A stretch of 53,249 nucleotides of DNA from Deltaproteobacteria bacterium (GCA_005879405.1 VBKW01000143.1:1-53249); one strand, 5' to 3'. Shown: positions 37,914 through 42,726, counted from the stretch's first letter. The notes: generated by a model not told the origin, from the letters alone. Numbers and translations: made by a program.

Positions 37914-39305
37914 TCAGAGCCGGGCGTCGACGATGCCGGCGGCGCGGTACTCGGCTAGCTTGTTGCGCAGCGTGCGGACGCTGATACCGAGCACCTTGGC
38001 GGCGTGGCTGCGGTTGTTGCGGGTACGGCGGAGCGTTTCGAGGATCAAGCGACACTCCATCTCGTGTACGGTCAACGCCGGGAGATCGCCGCTTACGCTG
38101 GTGGCGGCGGCGCTGACGCCCGTGGCGATGTCGGCACGCTCGGGTGCGAGGTCGTCTTCGAGCGCCACGTCGGCGAGCGTGATCGCCGTGCCGGCGGCGA
38201 GAAGTGACGCGCGCTCGAGGACGTGCTCGAGCTCGCGGACGTTGCCGGGCCACGTGTGGCGGAGAAGGTATGCGCGTGCCTCCGGCTCGAGCGCGAGCGC
38301 ACGCGGGCCGCCGAAGCGCTCGCAGAAGTGCTGGATCAACGCGGGGACGTCCTCGCCGCGGTCGCGGAGCGGTGGCACGGTGAGCGGGATGACGTGCACG
38401 CGGTAGTAGAGATCGCGGCGGAACGCGGCGGCGGCGACGAGCGGGCCGAGCGGACGGTTCGCGGTCGCGATCACGCGCGCGTCGATCGCGACGGGACGGG
38501 TGCCGCCGACGCGATCGATCTCGTGCTCCTGGAGCACGCGCAAGAGCTTCGCCTGTAGCGGCAGCTCGAGCTCGCTGATCTCGTCGAGGAGGATCGTGCC
38601 GCCGCTCGCGACCTCGAACTTCCCGAGCTTGCGCGCGATCGCGCCCGTGAACGCGCCGCGCTCGTGGCCGAAGAGCTCGCTCTCGAGGAGCTCGCGCGGC
38701 AGCGCCGCGCAGTTGATTGCGACGAACGGCTGCGCGCGGCGCGGACCGCTCGCGTGAATGTGGCGTGCGAGGAGCTCTTTGCCGGTGCCGCTCTCGCCCT
38801 GGATCAAGACCGGCGCGCGGCTCGCAGCCACGCCCTCGGCGATCGTGAGGACGCGGCGCATCGCCGCCGAGCGGGCGATGAGGCGCCGCGGCGCGCTGCC
38901 GCGCTCGCTGCTCGCGGGCGACGGCGCACCCGCGTCGCGGAGGATGCCGCGCACGAGGTGCAGGAGATCCTGCGGCGAAAACGGCTTCGTCAGGAAATCC
39001 CGCGCCCCCGCCTTCATCGCGGCGACCGCATCCTCGACGGTGCCGTACGCCGTCATCATCACCATGGGCAACCCGGGCGACCGCGCGTGCACGGCGGCGA
39101 GCAGCTCGGCGCCGGTCATGCCGGGCATGCGCATGTCGGAGAGCACGAGCGCGTAGCCGCCGCCCGCGAGCGCCGCGAGCGCCGCGGTGCCGCCGTCGAC
39201 GGCGGTCACCGCGAACCCGGCGCGCTCGAGCGCCTCCGTCAATCCGACGCGCATCCCGCTCTCGTCGTCGACCACCAGAATCCGTTCCGTCGTAGGCATG
39301 ATCAC
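37914..39305 (-). CDS. NtrC-family response regulator (REC + sigma-54 AAA+ + HTH), FlgR/FlrC/FleR-like
   Basis: REC ILVVDDESGMR..LVLSDMRMPGMTG..KP, Walker [15 protein letters not shown], and C-terminal HTH NRSHAAKVLGISVRTLRNKL. Confidence 0.9.
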   Translation of the reverse strand: MIMPTTERILVVDDESGMRVGLTEALERAGFAVTAVDGGTAALAALAGGGYALVLSDMRMPGMTGAELLAAVHARSPGLPMVMMTAYGTVEDAVAAMKAGARDFLTKPFSPQDLLHLVRGILRDAGAPSPASSERGSAPRRLIARSAAMRRVLTIAEGVAASRAPVLIQGESGTGKELLARHIHASGPRRAQPFVAINCAALPRELLESELFGHERGAFTGAIARKLGKFEVASGGTILLDEISELELPLQAKLLRVLQEHEIDRVGGTRPVAIDARVIATANRPLGPLVAAAAFRRDLYYRVHVIPLTVPPLRDRGEDVPALIQHFCERFGGPRALALEPEARAYLLRHTWPGNVRELEHVLERASLLAAGTAITLADVALEDDLAPERADIATGVSAAATSVSGDLPALTVHEMECRLILETLRRTRNNRSHAAKVLGISVRTLRNKLAEYRAAGIVDARL

Positions 39306-39311
39306 TCCCCG

Positions 39312-40202
39312 TCAGCGCCCGCTCGGCGCTGCATGCGGCAACGTGAGGACGAACGTCGCGCCGCGCGCGCTCGGCCGCAGCGCCAGCGTGCCACCGTGCG
39401 CGGCGACGGCAGCGCGCGCGACCGCGAGGCCGAGACCCGTGCCGCGCTCCTTCGTGGTGAAGAACGGCGTGAAGACGCTCTCGGCGCTCGCCGCCGGAAC
39501 CCCCGGCCCGTCGTCGGCGACGACGAGCCGCAGCCAGCGCGGCGACGGCTCGAGCGCGATCACGAGCGTCCCGCTTCCGGCCATCGCCTCCGCGGCGTTG
39601 CGGACGAGGTTGTGCAACGCTTGCGCGAGGAGACGCCGGTCGACCGGCCAGGTGGCCGCGCGCGCACCGCGACGCTCGACCGTGACGTCGCCGAGCGCCG
39701 GCGCCGCCGCGGCGAGCACCTCGTCGACGAGGGCGCCCAGGTCCGTCGTCGCGAGACGCGGCTCGGGCAGCCGGGTGTAGTCGAGAATGTTCGTCACCAG
39801 ATGGTTCAGATCGGCGACGCCGCCCGCCACCTGCTCCGCGAGCCGCAGCGCCGACGGCTGCGCCCGCACCTCGTCGACGAGGAGCTTGATGCACAGCTCC
39901 ATCGCGCCGAGCGGATTGCGCACCTCGTGGGCGAGCGTCGCCGCCATCTCGCCCATCGCGGCGAGGCGGCCGTGGCGCAGCGCCTGCGTCTCGAGACACC
40001 GCTGCCGCTCGATGCTCGCGTCGAGCGCCCGCTTCTTGTCGTCGAGCTCGAGCCGCAGCGCGTCGGCGTAGGCTTGTAGCTCGCGATACTGCTCCTCGAG
40101 CGTCGTCGTCGCTTCGGTGAAGACGCGAAACGCGGCGTGCAGCTCGGCGAGCTGCCGCTCGCTCGGTCGTGCGACGCGGTCGACGGCGGCTTCCACGCTC
40201 AC
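39312..40202 (-). CDS. Cytoplasmic histidine kinase without a recognisable sensor domain (coiled coil + HisKA + HATPase_c), FlgS/FlrB-like
   Basis: H-box MAATLAHEVRNPLGAM, N-box HNLVRNAAEA, G1 DDGPGV, G2 GTGLGLAV. No TM segment. GTG 40202 overlaps the upstream stop (GTGA). Confidence 0.9.
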   Translation of the reverse strand: MSVEAAVDRVARPSERQLAELHAAFRVFTEATTTLEEQYRELQAYADALRLELDDKKRALDASIERQRCLETQALRHGRLAAMGEMAATLAHEVRNPLGAMELCIKLLVDEVRAQPSALRLAEQVAGGVADLNHLVTNILDYTRLPEPRLATTDLGALVDEVLAAAAPALGDVTVERRGARAATWPVDRRLLAQALHNLVRNAAEAMAGSGTLVIALEPSPRWLRLVVADDGPGVPAASAESVFTPFFTTKERGTGLGLAVARAAVAAHGGTLALRPSARGATFVLTLPHAAPSGR

Positions 40203-42688: not shown

Positions 42689-42710
42689 ACCAGGAAAAAA
42701 TTGCCGGTCG

Positions 42711-42726
42711 AGCAACGCTCGTGCCG
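42711..42726 (-). promoter_or_regulatory. Sigma-54 promoter of the AMIN-TPR / kinase / response-regulator operon
   Basis: The - strand reads CGGCACGAGCGTTGCT, identical to the flgF promoter in 15 of 16 positions. It lies 22 nt upstream of ATG 42688. Confidence 0.65.

What the first reader, a model, noticed from the sequence alone, without database searches (positions are those of the whole stretch)
37914..42726. Flagellar two-component system co-transcribed with a secreted AMIN-TPR giant
Seen in sequence: the sigma-54 promoter CGGCACGAGCGTTGCT (42711..42726) precedes an 829-aa secreted protein with a signal peptide, an AMIN-like domain ending ..PPRLVIDL, a Pro/Ala linker and about 550 aa of TPR-like repeats. 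Its stop overlaps (GTGA) the start of a sensor-less cytoplasmic histidine kinase, which is followed by an NtrC-type response regulator. That regulator lies directly upstream of the sigma-54-dependent flgB operon.
Established knowledge: cytoplasmic FlgS with NtrC-like FlgR controls sigma-54 rod/hook genes in Campylobacter and Helicobacter. AMIN domains target peptidoglycan or the septum. Periplasmic TPR proteins PflA and PflB scaffold the Campylobacter motor.
Inference: the AMIN-TPR protein may be a periplasmic motor scaffold or polar landmark whose synthesis is tied to the checkpoint kinase. I do not recognise this operon architecture as described.
Basis: partly seen in the sequence, partly recalled or inferred. 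Interest (0 to 1): 0.65.

Follow-up and report, generated by a model that had tools for sequence, protein, structure and literature searches.

The report
PflA-like flagellar scaffold gene heading kinase operon
In an uncultured Binatia bacterium, a secreted protein built like the Campylobacter flagellar-motor "spoke" PflA is encoded in one sigma-54-driven operon with the kinase and regulator that switch on the flagellar rod genes; this is a new wiring of known parts, not a new kind of system.

Summary
A sigma-54 promoter (42711-42726, minus strand) precedes an 829-aa secreted protein. That protein's stop overlaps (GTGA) the start of a TM-less histidine kinase, which is followed by an NtrC-type regulator and then a sigma-54 flgB-flgC-fliE-fliF operon.

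The large protein has no Pfam or NCBIfam hit. Its AlphaFold models show a signal peptide, an AMIN-fold beta-sandwich, a ~110-aa disordered Ala/Pro linker and ~15 TPR-like hairpins. This is the published architecture of the Campylobacter jejuni motor spoke PflA, which appears to be its best whole-model PDB match (9hmf_K, chain assigned by length). A FlgY-like (E-ring) gene lies in the same cluster.

The family is small and fast-evolving. Members that carry an organism label are Binatia or mislabelled "Deltaproteobacteria"/"Polyangiaceae" MAGs. The order big protein-kinase-regulator-flgB, the promoter, two upstream elements and a palindrome over the start site are conserved in relatives.

Verdict: a lineage-specific PflA-type scaffold candidate placed inside the FlgSR/FlrBC-type checkpoint operon. 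In C. jejuni, pflA is outside the sigma-54 cascade. TPR proteins near flagellar genes are already proposed to be widespread PflA homologues, so this is a new variant of a known kind, of moderate interest. Function is inferred, not shown.

The parts
42811..42824 (-). Upstream element 1 (GTCAACCTTCTGAC), about 85-100 nt before the promoter. It overlaps the stop of the preceding 200-aa gene.
   Evidence: The block G.CA....T.TGAC is invariant in the alignment of 12 relatives' upstream regions. No binding protein is assigned.
42786..42801 (-). Upstream element 2 (GGCCAAAAGCCTGGCC, inverted repeat GCCA-N6-TGGC), about 60-75 nt before the promoter. It is a candidate enhancer (UAS).
   Evidence: The block GCCAA.....TG.C is invariant in 12 relatives.
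42711..42726 (-). Sigma-54 (-24/-12) promoter CGGCACGAGCGTTGCT of the operon.
   Evidence: One mismatch to TGGCACN5TTGCW, in a window with 7 such sites against 0.45 expected. A matching site sits just upstream of the gene in all 12 relatives examined.
42692..42706 (-). Pseudo-palindrome CGGCAATTTTTTCCT directly after the -12 element, spanning roughly -6 to +9 of the inferred start site. It is a proposed operator.
   Evidence: It is a perfect CGGCAA-N3-TTGCCG at offset +21 in 6 of the 8 relatives scanned, and in L015 by eye. It is degenerate in the window clade. The same palindrome lies about 110-120 nt upstream of the flgB and flgF promoters.
40199..42688 (-). 829-aa secreted AMIN-linker-TPR protein (PflA-type scaffold candidate), first cistron of the operon.
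   Evidence: ORF and translation. No Pfam or NCBIfam family. AF2 model with pLDDT 80. Best PDB fold hit is 9hmf_K, from the C. jejuni periplasmic scaffold.
42620..42688 (-). Signal peptide, residues 1-23 (MRSLGRLALSVLVLLLLTERAYG|EA).
   Evidence: Sequence features, and a small-x-small motif before the invariant FASPPH in homologues. No other hydrophobic segment. Inferred, because no signal-peptide predictor was available.
42293..42616 (-). AMIN-fold beta-sandwich, residues 25-132, ending in DPPRLVIDL.
   Evidence: Domain model with pLDDT 90.9 and pTM 0.86. The top 4 PDB hits are the PilQ B2/AMIN domain (4av2, 4aqz), the AmiC AMIN domain (4bin) and M. xanthus PilQ (3jc8), with TMq 0.57-0.65. 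Pfam AMIN is only sub-threshold, in 2 of 15 homologues. hhalign against AmiC aligns only the last strand.
41954..42280 (-). Disordered Ala/Pro-rich linker, residues 137-245.
   Evidence: pLDDT about 30. Composition is 34% Ala and 17% Pro. Length is highly variable among homologues.
41909..41947 (-). Beta-hairpin with invariant cysteines C248 and C259. Two further invariant cysteines are C407 and C437.
   Evidence: Strands 249-253 and 256-260 in the model. The four Cys columns are invariant in 19 sequences. This is consistent with periplasmic disulfides, which is an inference.
40223..41893 (-). TPR-like superhelical domain, residues 266-822, about 31 helices or about 15 hairpins.
   Evidence: pLDDT mostly above 90. 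194 PDB fold hits at E<=0.001, and all 50 listed are helical-repeat (mostly TPR) proteins. The family profile matches the OGT TPR domain at E=2e-6.
39312..40202 (-). Cytoplasmic histidine kinase, 296 aa: coiled-coil-like N-terminus, HisKA, HATPase_c. Its start overlaps the upstream stop (GTGA).
   Evidence: Pfam matches. No TM segment. Overlap shown. A start/stop overlap is seen in 6 of 11 relatives' contigs and a 3-10 nt gap in the other five. Orthologues are 58-99% identical.
37914..39305 (-). NtrC-type response regulator (REC, sigma-54 AAA+ with GAFTGA, HTH_8). The likely start is the ATG at 39299, behind a GGGGAG Shine-Dalgarno sequence.
   Evidence: Pfam matches. The best NCBIfam models are FlbD, NtrC and AtoC, with FlgR lower, and all are below their cut-offs. 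Sequence.
37789..37816 (-). Candidate enhancer of the flgB promoter: palindrome CGGCAAAACTTGCCG followed by GTCAGCCTTTTGAC.
   Evidence: Perfect palindrome at -120. Palindrome copies (0-2 mismatches) lie 103-134 nt before the promoter in 7 of the 8 relatives scanned. The paired GTCA-N6-TGAC is also seen in L001 and L003.
37681..37696 (-). Sigma-54-type promoter of the flgB operon (TGGAATGCAACTTGCT).
   Evidence: GG and GC at the correct spacing. TGGAA[CT]-N5-[CT]TTGC[TA] is found in this position in all eight relatives scanned.
37291..37653 (-). flgB, first gene of the rod/MS-ring operon (flgB-flgC-fliE-fliF-fliG-fliH-fliI...). This is the presumed target of the regulator.
   Evidence: Pfam Flg_bb_rod and the downstream families. 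Start position read.
30750..31421 (-). FlgY-like protein (N-terminal TM or signal segment, coiled coil, C-terminal MgtE_N/ARM-like domain) between fliJ and fliK. It is the candidate E-ring partner of the scaffold.
   Evidence: MgtE_N at E=7e-5, just below the gathering score. Hydrophobic N-terminus. Its position matches the published search criterion for FlgY (PMC11870540).

Best explanation
The region is one sigma-54-dependent operon of three genes inside a complete polar-type flagellar cluster of a Candidatus Binatia bacterium.

First gene. It encodes a periplasmic structural protein with the PflA plan: signal peptide, AMIN-fold beta-sandwich, long flexible linker and a superhelix of about 15 TPR-like hairpins. 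I propose that it is a spoke or scaffold of the flagellar motor. [quoted passage not shown] The AMIN domain and linker would hold a peripheral partner or peptidoglycan.

Second and third genes. They encode a FlgS/FlgR (FlrBC/FleSR)-type pair. The soluble kinase, by analogy, becomes active when the MS-ring, rotor and export gate are built. It phosphorylates an NtrC-type activator, which then turns on the sigma-54 rod and hook operons. The first of these is the flgB operon immediately downstream, driven through a palindromic enhancer (CGGCAA-N3-TTGCCG) about 120 nt before its promoter.

Wiring. Placing the scaffold gene first in the operon, with its stop overlapping or within 10 nt of the kinase start, ties scaffold synthesis to synthesis of the checkpoint system. 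The same palindrome sits over the operon's own start site. This suggests that whichever enhancer-binding protein recognises it shuts the operon off again, as FlbD does at the Caulobacter fliF promoter. Two other conserved upstream elements would provide activation, possibly through the second, receiver-less sigma-54 activator at 4660-5841.

Shown: gene order, overlaps, domains, predicted folds, promoter and motif conservation. Inferred: secretion, motor localisation, who binds which site, and the direction of regulation.
For: Architecture.
- AF2 of the whole protein gives pLDDT 80: beta domain 25-132, disordered 137-245, helical repeats 266-822.
- The N-domain alone gives pLDDT 91. Its four best PDB matches are AMIN domains of PilQ and AmiC, with TMq 0.57-0.65.
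- The best match of the whole model among 350,542 PDB chains is 9hmf_K, from the C. jejuni periplasmic motor scaffold. It has E=2.5e-8 and 905 aligned columns. The chain has 773 residues, the same as PflA 16-788.
- Published PflA is a beta-sandwich named PflA-AMIN, a flexible loop and 16-17 TPRs (PMC12222027; PMC11870540).

Context.
- The window is a full flagellar cluster. It includes flhF, flhG, fliA and a FlgY-like MgtE_N protein between fliJ and fliK. This meets the operational criteria used to call PflA and FlgY homologues.

Conservation.
- Only 21 word-index hits and 147 hits among 1.84 billion representatives.
- The same order, GT9 - ~190-aa protein - [396-aa protein in some] - big protein - kinase - regulator - flgB..., holds in all 11 distinct contigs whose gene lists were read. 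These include profile hits as weak as E=1e-9 to 1e-19, and two loci reached from the kinase alone.
- The organism labels of relatives that point to a clade are Candidatus Binatia or mislabelled 'Deltaproteobacteria', 'Polyangiaceae' or 'Thermodesulfobacteriota' MAGs.

Regulation.
- Sigma-54 sites are strongly enriched in the window.
- The promoter, two upstream blocks and the post-promoter palindrome are the only invariant blocks in 12 aligned upstream regions.
- The palindrome is enriched, with 14 sites against 3.0 expected. It lies upstream of the flgB, flgF, fliK and glycosyltransferase promoters but at +21 in this operon.

Kinase and regulator.
- Domains, no TM segment and the GAFTGA motif.
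- Flagellar two-component systems co-occur with FlhF/FlhG in polar flagellates, and FlgS-type kinases are soluble with only a coiled coil (PMC7064773).
Against: - No sequence-level homology to PflA, AMIN or TPR families could be shown for the window protein. Pfam and NCBIfam give nothing. AMIN is sub-threshold in 2-3 of 15 homologues. hhalign against AmiC aligns 8 residues.
- The PflA fold hit has TM 0.20 and rmsd 40 A. Its E-value is only about 4-fold better than that of unrelated eukaryotic TPR proteins, so it mainly reflects shared architecture.
- The N-domain search did not return PflA's own beta-sandwich among its top 50 hits.
- The identity of chain K as PflA is inferred from its length only.
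- No PflB-like rim protein and no motAB are in the window.
- The linker is about 3 times longer than PflA's loop.
- In C. jejuni, pflA is not sigma-54-regulated, so the regulatory analogy is not inherited from that model.
- No transcript data: co-transcription, the start site and the role of the palindrome are inferred from sequence.
- The organism is uncultured.
Confidence: 0.55

Rival explanations
1. The protein is a peptidoglycan-anchored polar landmark or hub, a functional analogue of FimV/HubP/TsaP. It would mark the pole or the insertion site rather than form part of the motor, and it is co-expressed with the regulators for that reason.
For: The AMIN fold is a known septal/peptidoglycan-targeting module, as in AmiC and PilQ. 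The cluster carries flhF and flhG, so flagellation is probably polar. FimV/HubP also combine a peptidoglycan-binding domain, a low-complexity region and TPRs (from my own knowledge).
Against: There is no TM segment after the signal peptide. The TPR part is therefore periplasmic and cannot contact the cytoplasmic FlhF/FlhG/ParA-type clients as FimV/HubP do. The peptidoglycan-binding module is AMIN, not LysM. The gene sits inside the basal-body operon block, and the best full-length structural match is the motor scaffold chain.
Confidence: 0.15
2. The protein is a transient periplasmic assembly factor or chaperone. It might act for P/L-ring, rod or peptidoglycan-remodelling steps, like TPR pilotins such as PilF or Tol-Pal YbgF/CpoB. 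It would not be a stable part of the finished motor.
For: TPR domains are generic interaction scaffolds. There are weak matches to YbgF/CpoB (E=0.31, E=0.023). The cluster's FlgJ carries an M23 peptidase domain instead of a muramidase, so peptidoglycan handling here is unusual. Sigma-54 class timing would suit an assembly factor.
Against: An 829-aa protein with about 15 repeats and an anchoring domain is much larger than known pilotins or YbgF. The architecture matches a structural spoke. The YbgF/CpoB matches are not significant.
Confidence: 0.12
3. The protein is the sensory input of the two-component system. A periplasmic state, such as scaffold or peptidoglycan status, would be relayed to the otherwise sensor-less kinase. 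This would explain the gene junction (overlapping stop and start, or a gap of 10 nt or less) found in every locus.
For: The kinase has no sensor domain. The junction is conserved while the big protein itself diverges strongly.
Against: The kinase has no TM segment and the big protein has no cytoplasmic part. No direct contact across the membrane is therefore possible without a third, unidentified protein. Characterised FlgS, FlrB and FleS respond to cytoplasmic MS-ring, rotor and export-gate assembly (PMC7064773; PMC3930126). Overlapping stop and start codons are common in operons and do not imply interaction.
Confidence: 0.07
4. The linkage has no flagellar meaning. The protein would be a general envelope TPR protein, or part of the adjacent glycosylation island, that happens to sit beside flagellar genes.
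For: Three glycosyltransferase genes lie immediately upstream, one of which itself carries TPRs. The 200-aa gene between them and the big gene has no known function.
Against: The big gene has its own conserved sigma-54 promoter and is joined to the kinase gene, not to the glycosyltransferases. The arrangement holds in all 11 distinct relatives' contigs read. The glycosyltransferases lack signal-peptide context, and flagellin glycosylation is cytoplasmic (from my own knowledge), whereas this protein is exported.
Confidence: 0.05

Closest known systems
PflA, the paralysed-flagellum protein A that forms the spokes of the Campylobacter jejuni / Helicobacter pylori motor scaffold
   Same: Both have a cleaved N-terminal signal, an AMIN-like beta-sandwich, a flexible linker and a C-terminal superhelix of about 15-17 TPR hairpins, in a protein of about 800 aa. 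Both are encoded in a genome that has a FlgY-type E-ring gene. PflA, assigned as chain 9hmf_K by length, is the best whole-model PDB match.
   Different: No detectable sequence similarity. The linker is about 110 aa and Ala/Pro-rich, against about 40 aa in PflA. An extra Cys-bearing hairpin and four invariant cysteines are present. No PflB-like partner was found in the window. Here the gene is sigma-54-driven and heads the two-component operon, whereas C. jejuni pflA is independent of RpoN and FliA and is not linked to flgS or flgR.
Flagellar-cluster TPR proteins proposed as widespread PflA homologues (Feng et al. 2025: MotC, MotK, FlcA/B, CC_2058)
   Same: It is a single multi-TPR protein without an enzyme domain, inside a flagellar cluster, in a genome that also has an MgtE_N-type FlgY. 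It lacks the TM segment and split beta-pair that define PflB.
   Different: Pfam TPR models do not detect it, so that survey's PF00515-based screen would probably have missed it. Binatota do not appear in the held part of that paper's table (the stored file is truncated). It keeps the AMIN domain. The paper treats that domain as part of a Campylobacterota-specific borrowing from type IV pili.
FlgS/FlgR (Campylobacterota), FlrB/FlrC (Vibrio) and FleS/FleR (Pseudomonas) flagellar two-component systems
   Same: A soluble kinase is paired with an NtrC-type sigma-54 activator. The pair is encoded next to fliE/flgB-fliF genes in a genome with FlhF/FlhG. Sigma-54 promoters precede the rod and hook operons. 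The kinase N-terminus is coiled-coil only, as in C. jejuni FlgS. As in Vibrio and Pseudomonas, the operon itself has a sigma-54 promoter.
   Different: A structural gene is the first cistron of the operon. Scores are below the NCBIfam cut-offs for FlgR and FlbD. No FleQ/FlrA-type master regulator with a FleQ domain is present. Instead there is a receiver-less AAA+ and HTH activator at the far end of the cluster.
Caulobacter FlbD acting at ftr elements
   Same: FlbD is the best-scoring NCBIfam model for the regulator. The same DNA element appears at enhancer distance from rod-gene promoters and over the start site of the regulator's own operon. This matches FlbD activating late promoters and repressing fliF (PMC3930126).
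   Different: Here the own-operon promoter is itself sigma-54-type. A cognate kinase is present, whereas FlbD is controlled by FliX. The ftr consensus could not be checked because the papers are not held. Which protein binds the palindrome is unknown.

Membership tests
PflA-type motor spoke | Exported to the periplasm through an N-terminal signal peptide, with no membrane span | tested here: met
   Charged start, an 11-residue hydrophobic core and a small-x-small site that is conserved in homologues. No TM-grade segment. No dedicated predictor was available.
PflA-type motor spoke | N-terminal AMIN-like beta-sandwich | tested here: met
   Model pLDDT 91. The top 4 PDB hits are AMIN domains, with TMq 0.57-0.65.
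PflA-type motor spoke | Flexible linker followed by about 16-17 TPRs forming an elongated superhelix | tested here: met
   Residues 137-245 are disordered. About 31 helices span 266-822. The top whole-model PDB hit is 9hmf_K, which has the length of PflA.
PflA-type motor spoke | Sequence homology to Campylobacterota PflA | tested here: inconclusive
   No Pfam or NCBIfam match. PDB entry 9HMF is a C-alpha trace and did not appear in the PDB sequence search. No PflA sequence was available for a direct profile comparison. PflA is reported not to be conserved in sequence.
PflA-type motor spoke | Encoded in or near a flagellar cluster, in a genome with FlgY | tested here: met
   The gene is inside the cluster. 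A FlgY-like MgtE_N protein lies at 30750-31421. The linkage is conserved in all 11 distinct contigs read.
PflA-type motor spoke | Forms spokes between the E-ring and a PflB rim or the stators; a mutant is paralysed | not testable with these tools
   This needs cryo-ET and genetics. No PflB-like gene is in the window, and the rest of the genome was not available.
AMIN domain (Pfam PF11741) | HMM match above the gathering score | tested here: not met
   No hit on the window protein. The best E-value is 0.029, in 2 of 15 homologues, and AMIN-like PF24837 reaches 0.0077 in one. hhalign against AmiC aligns only RLVIDL with RLVMDL.
AMIN domain (Pfam PF11741) | AMIN fold | tested here: met
   4av2, 4aqz, 4bin and 3jc8 are the top four fold hits, with probability 0.98-1.00.
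TPR repeat proteins | Recognisable TPR motifs by sequence | tested here: inconclusive
   Pfam finds none in the window protein at E<=1. The family profile matches the OGT TPR domain at E=2e-6 over profile positions 335-420. Relatives have 'faint' TPR hits.
TPR repeat proteins | Helical-hairpin superhelix fold | tested here: met
   194 PDB matches at E<=0.001, and all 50 listed are helical-repeat (mostly TPR) proteins.
FlgSR/FlrBC/FleSR flagellar two-component system | Soluble HisKA/HATPase kinase paired with a REC-AAA+(GAFTGA)-HTH sigma-54 activator | tested here: met
FlgSR/FlrBC/FleSR flagellar two-component system | Linked to flagellar genes and FlhF/FlhG, with sigma-54 promoters on the rod and hook operons | tested here: met
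FlgSR/FlrBC/FleSR flagellar two-component system | Passes curated orthologue models (NCBIfam FlgR or FlbD) | tested here: not met
   FlbD scores 425.6 bits against a cut-off of 750. FlgR scores 301.8 against 750. It is a generic NtrC-family member by score.
FlgSR/FlrBC/FleSR flagellar two-component system | Kinase activity depends on MS-ring, rotor and export-gate assembly; phosphotransfer to the regulator | not testable with these tools
   Needs biochemistry and genetics.
FimV/HubP-type polar landmark | Periplasmic LysM domain, a TM segment and a cytoplasmic TPR/repeat region | tested here: not met
   There is no TM segment and no LysM domain, and the whole protein is periplasmic.

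The most novel reading that the evidence does not exclude
The operon is a self-limiting 'scaffold plus checkpoint' module that is specific to Binatota.

- An upstream activator would fire the sigma-54 promoter and produce the spoke protein, the kinase and the regulator together.
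- Once the MS-ring and export gate activate the kinase, the phosphorylated regulator would switch on the rod operons through the upstream palindrome.
- At the same time it would close its own promoter through the identical palindrome over the start site.
- The amount of periplasmic scaffold made per motor would then be set by the assembly checkpoint itself.

This would be the first case in which a motor-scaffold gene is an integral, feedback-controlled part of the flagellar transcription cascade. It would also mean that the AMIN-TPR spoke plan exists outside Campylobacterota.
Probability: 0.2. Interest if true: 0.6.

Novelty: new variant of a known kind. Interest (0 to 1): 0.42.

Why it matters
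Recent cryo-EM work shows that high-torque motors owe their stator scaffolds to PflA-type spokes. It also proposes that such spokes and the FlgY E-ring are ancient and widespread, although they are nearly invisible to sequence searches.

This locus gives an independent example in a distant, uncultured phylum. It is found by fold, and it keeps the full AMIN-linker-TPR plan. That bears on whether the AMIN module was a Campylobacterota-specific borrowing from type IV pili.

It also shows a different regulatory solution. The scaffold gene sits inside the sigma-54 cascade and is physically joined to the checkpoint kinase gene. The conserved operator-like site makes a concrete, testable prediction about feedback.

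The practical value is limited because Binatia are uncultured and nothing functional is shown.

Tried and rejected
- Pfam and NCBIfam scans of the 829-aa protein found nothing. The only line was YbgF at E=0.31.
- The PDB sequence search with the family profile gave only generic TPR hits (OGT) and non-significant PilQ lines (E=3.8-5.9). It did not return the PflA chain; entry 9HMF is a C-alpha trace.
- hhalign of the N-domain profile against the E. coli AmiC AMIN region aligned only 8 residues. Sequence-level AMIN membership was therefore dropped and only the fold claim is kept.
- The Pfam scan of 15 N-domains gave only sub-threshold AMIN hits.
- I tried to reach other phyla through the kinase. 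The best 120 hits are all at least 58% identical, and every source name that gives an organism says Binatia or 'Deltaproteobacteria' MAG. Whether other phyla share this operon layout remains untested.
- The genome-collection scan returned four short matches (residues 314-417 only) in unrelated MAGs (L016-L019). I treated these as generic TPR similarity and did not pursue them.
- I tried to check the Caulobacter ftr consensus in Benson 1994 and Mullin 1994. Neither paper is held, and the ChIP-seq paper search gave nothing usable. The resemblance to ftr therefore rests on a review and on memory.
- My regex for the first upstream element (GTCAA-N4-TCTGAC, up to 2 mismatches) found almost nothing because the motif was specified too tightly. 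The alignment was used instead.
- The intrinsic-terminator and sigma-70 scans of 37200-43600 found no sigma-70-type promoter sites and no more terminator-like sites than chance.
- An RNA-hairpin reading of the post-promoter palindrome was considered and set aside. The inferred start site falls inside the palindrome, and the same element occurs in untranscribed upstream positions at other promoters.
- Reading the protein as PflB was rejected. It has no TM segment, and its beta-hairpin is contiguous rather than a mid-chain strand paired with the C-terminus.

Full report
**What is in the sequence**

The window has 71% G+C. Almost all of it is one minus-strand flagellar gene cluster. Pfam scans gave the following gene map:
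- fliC, flaG, fliD, fliS
- three glycosyltransferases: GT1+TPR, a Maf-like Glyco_trans_1_2, and GT9
- a 200-aa gene of unknown function
- the three genes of the finding
- flgB, flgC, fliE, fliF, fliG, fliH, fliI, a likely fliJ, a MgtE_N-like gene
- fliK, flgD, flgE, fliL, fliM, fliN, a fliO-fliP fusion, fliQ, fliR
- flhB, flhA, flhF, flhG, fliA
- flgF, flgG, flgA, flgH, flgI, flgJ (with an M23 domain), flgM, flgN, flgK, flgL
- csrA, fliW, and a second sigma-54 activator

**Checking the observation**

- The 16-mer CGGCACGAGCGTTGCT sits at 42711-42726, 22 nt before the ATG at 42688.
- The ORF 40199-42688 gives 829 aa.
- Its TGA overlaps the GTG of a 296-aa kinase as GTGA.
- The kinase has HisKA and HATPase_c and no hydrophobic segment.
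- A REC-AAA+(GAFTGA)-HTH_8 regulator follows.
- After a gap of about 220 nt comes TGGAATGCAACTTGCT (37681-37696), then flgB.

The promoter is not a chance match. The consensus with up to 1 mismatch occurs 7 times against 0.45 expected, and no shuffle reaches 7. Six of the sites are on the coding strand directly ahead of operons: glycosyltransferases, this operon, fliK, fliL, flgF and the second activator.

**What the big protein is**

Sequence libraries are silent. There is no Pfam family at E<=1, and the only NCBIfam line is YbgF at E=0.31.

Homologues are few.
- 21 in the 5.8-billion-protein index.
- 147 among 1.84 billion representatives with a family profile, of which 33 are at E<1e-30 and many are fragments.

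Their alignment shows these features:
- a signal peptide
- an invariant FASPPH at the mature N-terminus
- a beta domain ending in the invariant DPPRL
- a linker that varies from about 60 to 300 residues
- four invariant cysteines
- a well-conserved Ala/Leu/Arg-rich C-terminal part of about 560 residues

AlphaFold2 on this alignment gave pLDDT 80. Strands cover 25-132, residues 137-245 are disordered, a hairpin covers 249-260, and about 31 helices cover 266-822, mostly with pLDDT above 90.

The N-domain modelled alone gave pLDDT 90.9. Its four best PDB matches are:
- the Neisseria PilQ B2/AMIN domain (4av2, 4aqz)
- the AMIN domain of E. coli AmiC (4bin)
- Myxococcus PilQ (3jc8)

These have TMq 0.57-0.65 and probability 0.98-1.00. 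Sequence support for AMIN is only sub-threshold, so I claim the fold and not Pfam membership.

The C-domain is TPR-like by fold. Its first repeats are TPR-like by a profile match to the OGT TPR domain at E=2e-6.

**The link to PflA**

The best match of the whole model among 350,542 PDB chains is 9hmf_K, 'Periplasmic scaffold of the Campylobacter jejuni flagellar motor'. It has E=2.5e-8 and 905 alignment columns. The chain has 773 residues, which equals PflA 16-788.

Two papers describe PflA with the same plan:
- an elongated superhelix of 16 TPR motifs connected to an N-terminal beta-sandwich by an unstructured linker (PMC12222027)
- a beta-sandwich named PflA-AMIN for its resemblance to PilQ AMIN domains, then a flexible loop, then 17 TPRs (PMC11870540)

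The second paper makes three further points.
- PflA is not conserved in sequence.
- About 52% of flagellated species have a multi-TPR protein near flagellar genes that resembles PflA.
- FlgY, the E-ring protein, is recognised as a MgtE_N-type protein next to fliJ or fliK.

The window has exactly such a gene at 30750-31421, with a hydrophobic N-terminus, a coiled coil and a C-terminal MgtE_N match at E=7e-5.

By architecture and context, the protein is therefore a PflA-type spoke candidate. The caveats are real.
- The fold hit has TM 0.20 and is barely ahead of eukaryotic TPR proteins.
- It reflects shared domain order more than detailed similarity.
- No PflB-like partner is in the window.

**Conservation of the arrangement**

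The genome scan placed the family in MAGs labelled Candidatus Binatia. It also placed it in MAGs labelled 'Deltaproteobacteria', 'Polyangiaceae' or 'Thermodesulfobacteriota', which I read as mislabelled relatives. Binatota are reported to carry flagellar genes in most orders (PMC8262859).

I read the called-gene lists of 11 distinct contigs.
- Five were found from close or intermediate homologues.
- Four were found from the weakest profile hits, at E=1e-9 to 1e-59.
- Two were found independently from kinase orthologues of 58-59% identity.

All have the order GT9 - ~190-aa protein - (sometimes a 396-aa protein) - big protein - kinase - regulator - flgB, flgC, fliE, fliF and so on, as far as each contig extends. 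The big gene's stop overlaps the kinase start in six of them. It lies 3-10 nt before the kinase start in the other five.

The kinase is far better conserved (58-99% identity) than the big protein (about 40-75%, and less in the distant tier). This is as expected for a TPR scaffold.

**Regulatory anatomy**

Each of the 12 relatives examined has one sigma-54 site just upstream of the big gene. An alignment of these regions has 53% mean column identity and only four invariant blocks:
1. G.CA....T.TGAC
2. GCCAA.....TG.C (GCCA-N6-TGGC)
3. the promoter itself
4. GGCAA...TT.CC, starting 5 nt after the promoter

In the scan of eight relatives, the fourth block is a perfect palindrome CGGCAA-N3-TTGCCG at offset +21 in six. 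It has two mismatches in L003 and more than two in L006. It is also perfect in L015 and one mismatch off in L010 by eye. It is degenerate in the window's own clade.

The same palindrome is enriched in the window, with 14 sites against 3.0 expected and no shuffle reaching 14.
- It lies 103-134 nt before the flgB promoter in the window and in seven of the eight relatives scanned.
- It lies 117 nt before the flgF promoter in the window.
- In weaker form it lies 66-93 nt before the fliK and glycosyltransferase promoters.
- The fliL promoter and the second activator's promoter lack it.

An element at enhancer distance from rod-gene promoters, but over the start site of the regulator's own operon, is the layout by which Caulobacter FlbD activates late genes and represses fliF (review PMC3930126). 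FlbD is also the best-scoring NCBIfam model for this regulator, although below its cut-off. I therefore propose negative feedback on this operon. Activation would come from the two upstream blocks, possibly through the receiver-less activator at 4660-5841. None of these assignments has been tested.

**Mechanism proposed**

- The operon is fired from its sigma-54 promoter and makes the exported AMIN-linker-TPR protein together with the soluble kinase and the regulator.
- The exported protein joins the inner-membrane-proximal scaffold. Its TPR arm points toward the FlgY-like ring and the stators. Its AMIN domain and linker hold peptidoglycan or a peripheral partner.
- The kinase, like FlgS, FlrB and FleS (PMC7064773), is activated by the completed MS-ring, rotor and export gate. 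It phosphorylates the regulator.
- The regulator activates the flgB and flgF operons, and probably fliK and the glycosyltransferase operon, and may close its own promoter.

Making the scaffold before the rod genes fits the finding that C. jejuni scaffolds assemble before the rod. There, however, pflA is outside the RpoN and FliA cascade. The sigma-54 dependence and the operon fusion are the features that differ here.

**Rivals**

- A FimV/HubP-like polar landmark is unlikely, because the protein has no membrane span and no cytoplasmic part.
- A transient assembly factor cannot be excluded.
- A sensory role for the kinase is topologically implausible without a third protein.
- Chance linkage is excluded by the conservation.

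**Novelty and score**

The parts are known kinds: a PflA-type spoke, a FlgY-like E-ring protein and a FlgSR/FlrBC-type two-component system. The family itself is unannotated. It is invisible to Pfam, and its labelled members come from one uncultured lineage.

I could not find the operon layout described. That layout is a scaffold gene as first cistron of the sigma-54-driven checkpoint operon, with a conserved operator-like palindrome.

I rate it a new variant of a known kind with moderate interest (0.42). All function is inferred from sequence, predicted structure and synteny.

Noticed in passing
window 4660-5841 (-), promoter 5883-5898 (-): This is a second sigma-54 activator of 393 aa. It has an AAA+ domain with GAFTGA and an HTH_8 domain but no receiver or FleQ domain. 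It is the last gene of the cluster, after csrA and fliW. A perfect TGGCACCTCGCTTGCT promoter precedes it, and a GCCAATTTTTGGC inverted repeat lies upstream. It could be the master or a late regulator of the cascade.
   Followed up: partly
window 15489-15503, 37802-37816, 42692-42706, 30456-30470, 49057-49071, 2244-2258: The palindrome CGGCAA-N3-TTGCCG is enriched, with 14 sites against 3.0 expected. It accompanies most sigma-54 promoters of the cluster at different offsets: upstream for flgB, flgF, fliK and the glycosyltransferase operon, and over the start site for the scaffold-kinase operon. The fliL promoter and the second activator's promoter lack it, which suggests two promoter classes.
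   Followed up: partly
window 30750-31421 (-): This is a FlgY-like gene between the likely fliJ and fliK. It has a hydrophobic N-terminus, a coiled coil and a C-terminal MgtE_N/ARM-like domain (E=7e-5, just under the Pfam cut-off). It is the candidate E-ring protein.
   Followed up: partly
window 42812-43414 (-); L001 9099-9680, L003 7820-8404, L020 2388-2957, L021 3198-3797, L022 5931-6530: A cytoplasmic-looking protein of about 190-200 aa with unknown function always lies between the GT9 gene and the scaffold gene. In some relatives it has a weak Pfam TP0873_N hit. In L003 and L022 an extra 396-aa gene with no Pfam hit follows it.
   Followed up: no
window 43395-48909 (-), promoter 48976-48991 (-): Three glycosyltransferase genes (GT1 with C-terminal TPRs, a Maf-like Glyco_trans_1_2 with DUF3880, and GT9 heptosyltransferase-like) lie behind their own conserved sigma-54 promoter (TGGCATTCGTCTTGCT). 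They are probably a flagellin glycosylation operon under the same cascade.
   Followed up: no
window 22990-24333 (-): FliO and FliP domains are in one 447-aa ORF. This is an apparent fliO-fliP fusion.
   Followed up: no
window 9992-10879 (-): The FlgJ-like protein combines the rod-binding domain with a Peptidase_M23 domain instead of the usual muramidase.
   Followed up: no
window 2309-2324 (+) and ORF 2353-3300 (+): This is the only plus-strand sigma-54 site (CGGCACCCTGCTTGCT). It has a palindrome copy about 65 nt upstream. It precedes a 315-aa ORF with no Pfam hit and unusually high second-position G+C (0.67).
   Followed up: no
L023 14051-16651: In one Binatia MAG (GCA_046327955.1), FliF and FliG are called as a single 866-aa protein. 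This is either a FliF-FliG fusion or an assembly or gene-calling artefact.
   Followed up: no
L003 9732-12484 and L004 6578-9330: In this relative the scaffold gene is called as two ORFs, of 90 aa and 827 aa. The sigma-54 promoter lies before the short one. This is a frameshift, a sequencing error or a genuine split.
   Followed up: no
window 30494-30745 (-) and 3384-4055 (-): An 83-aa ORF with a weak HAD-hydrolase N-terminal motif sits between the FlgY-like gene and the fliK promoter. A full HAD hydrolase is encoded just outside the cluster. The short ORF may be a gene fragment.
   Followed up: no
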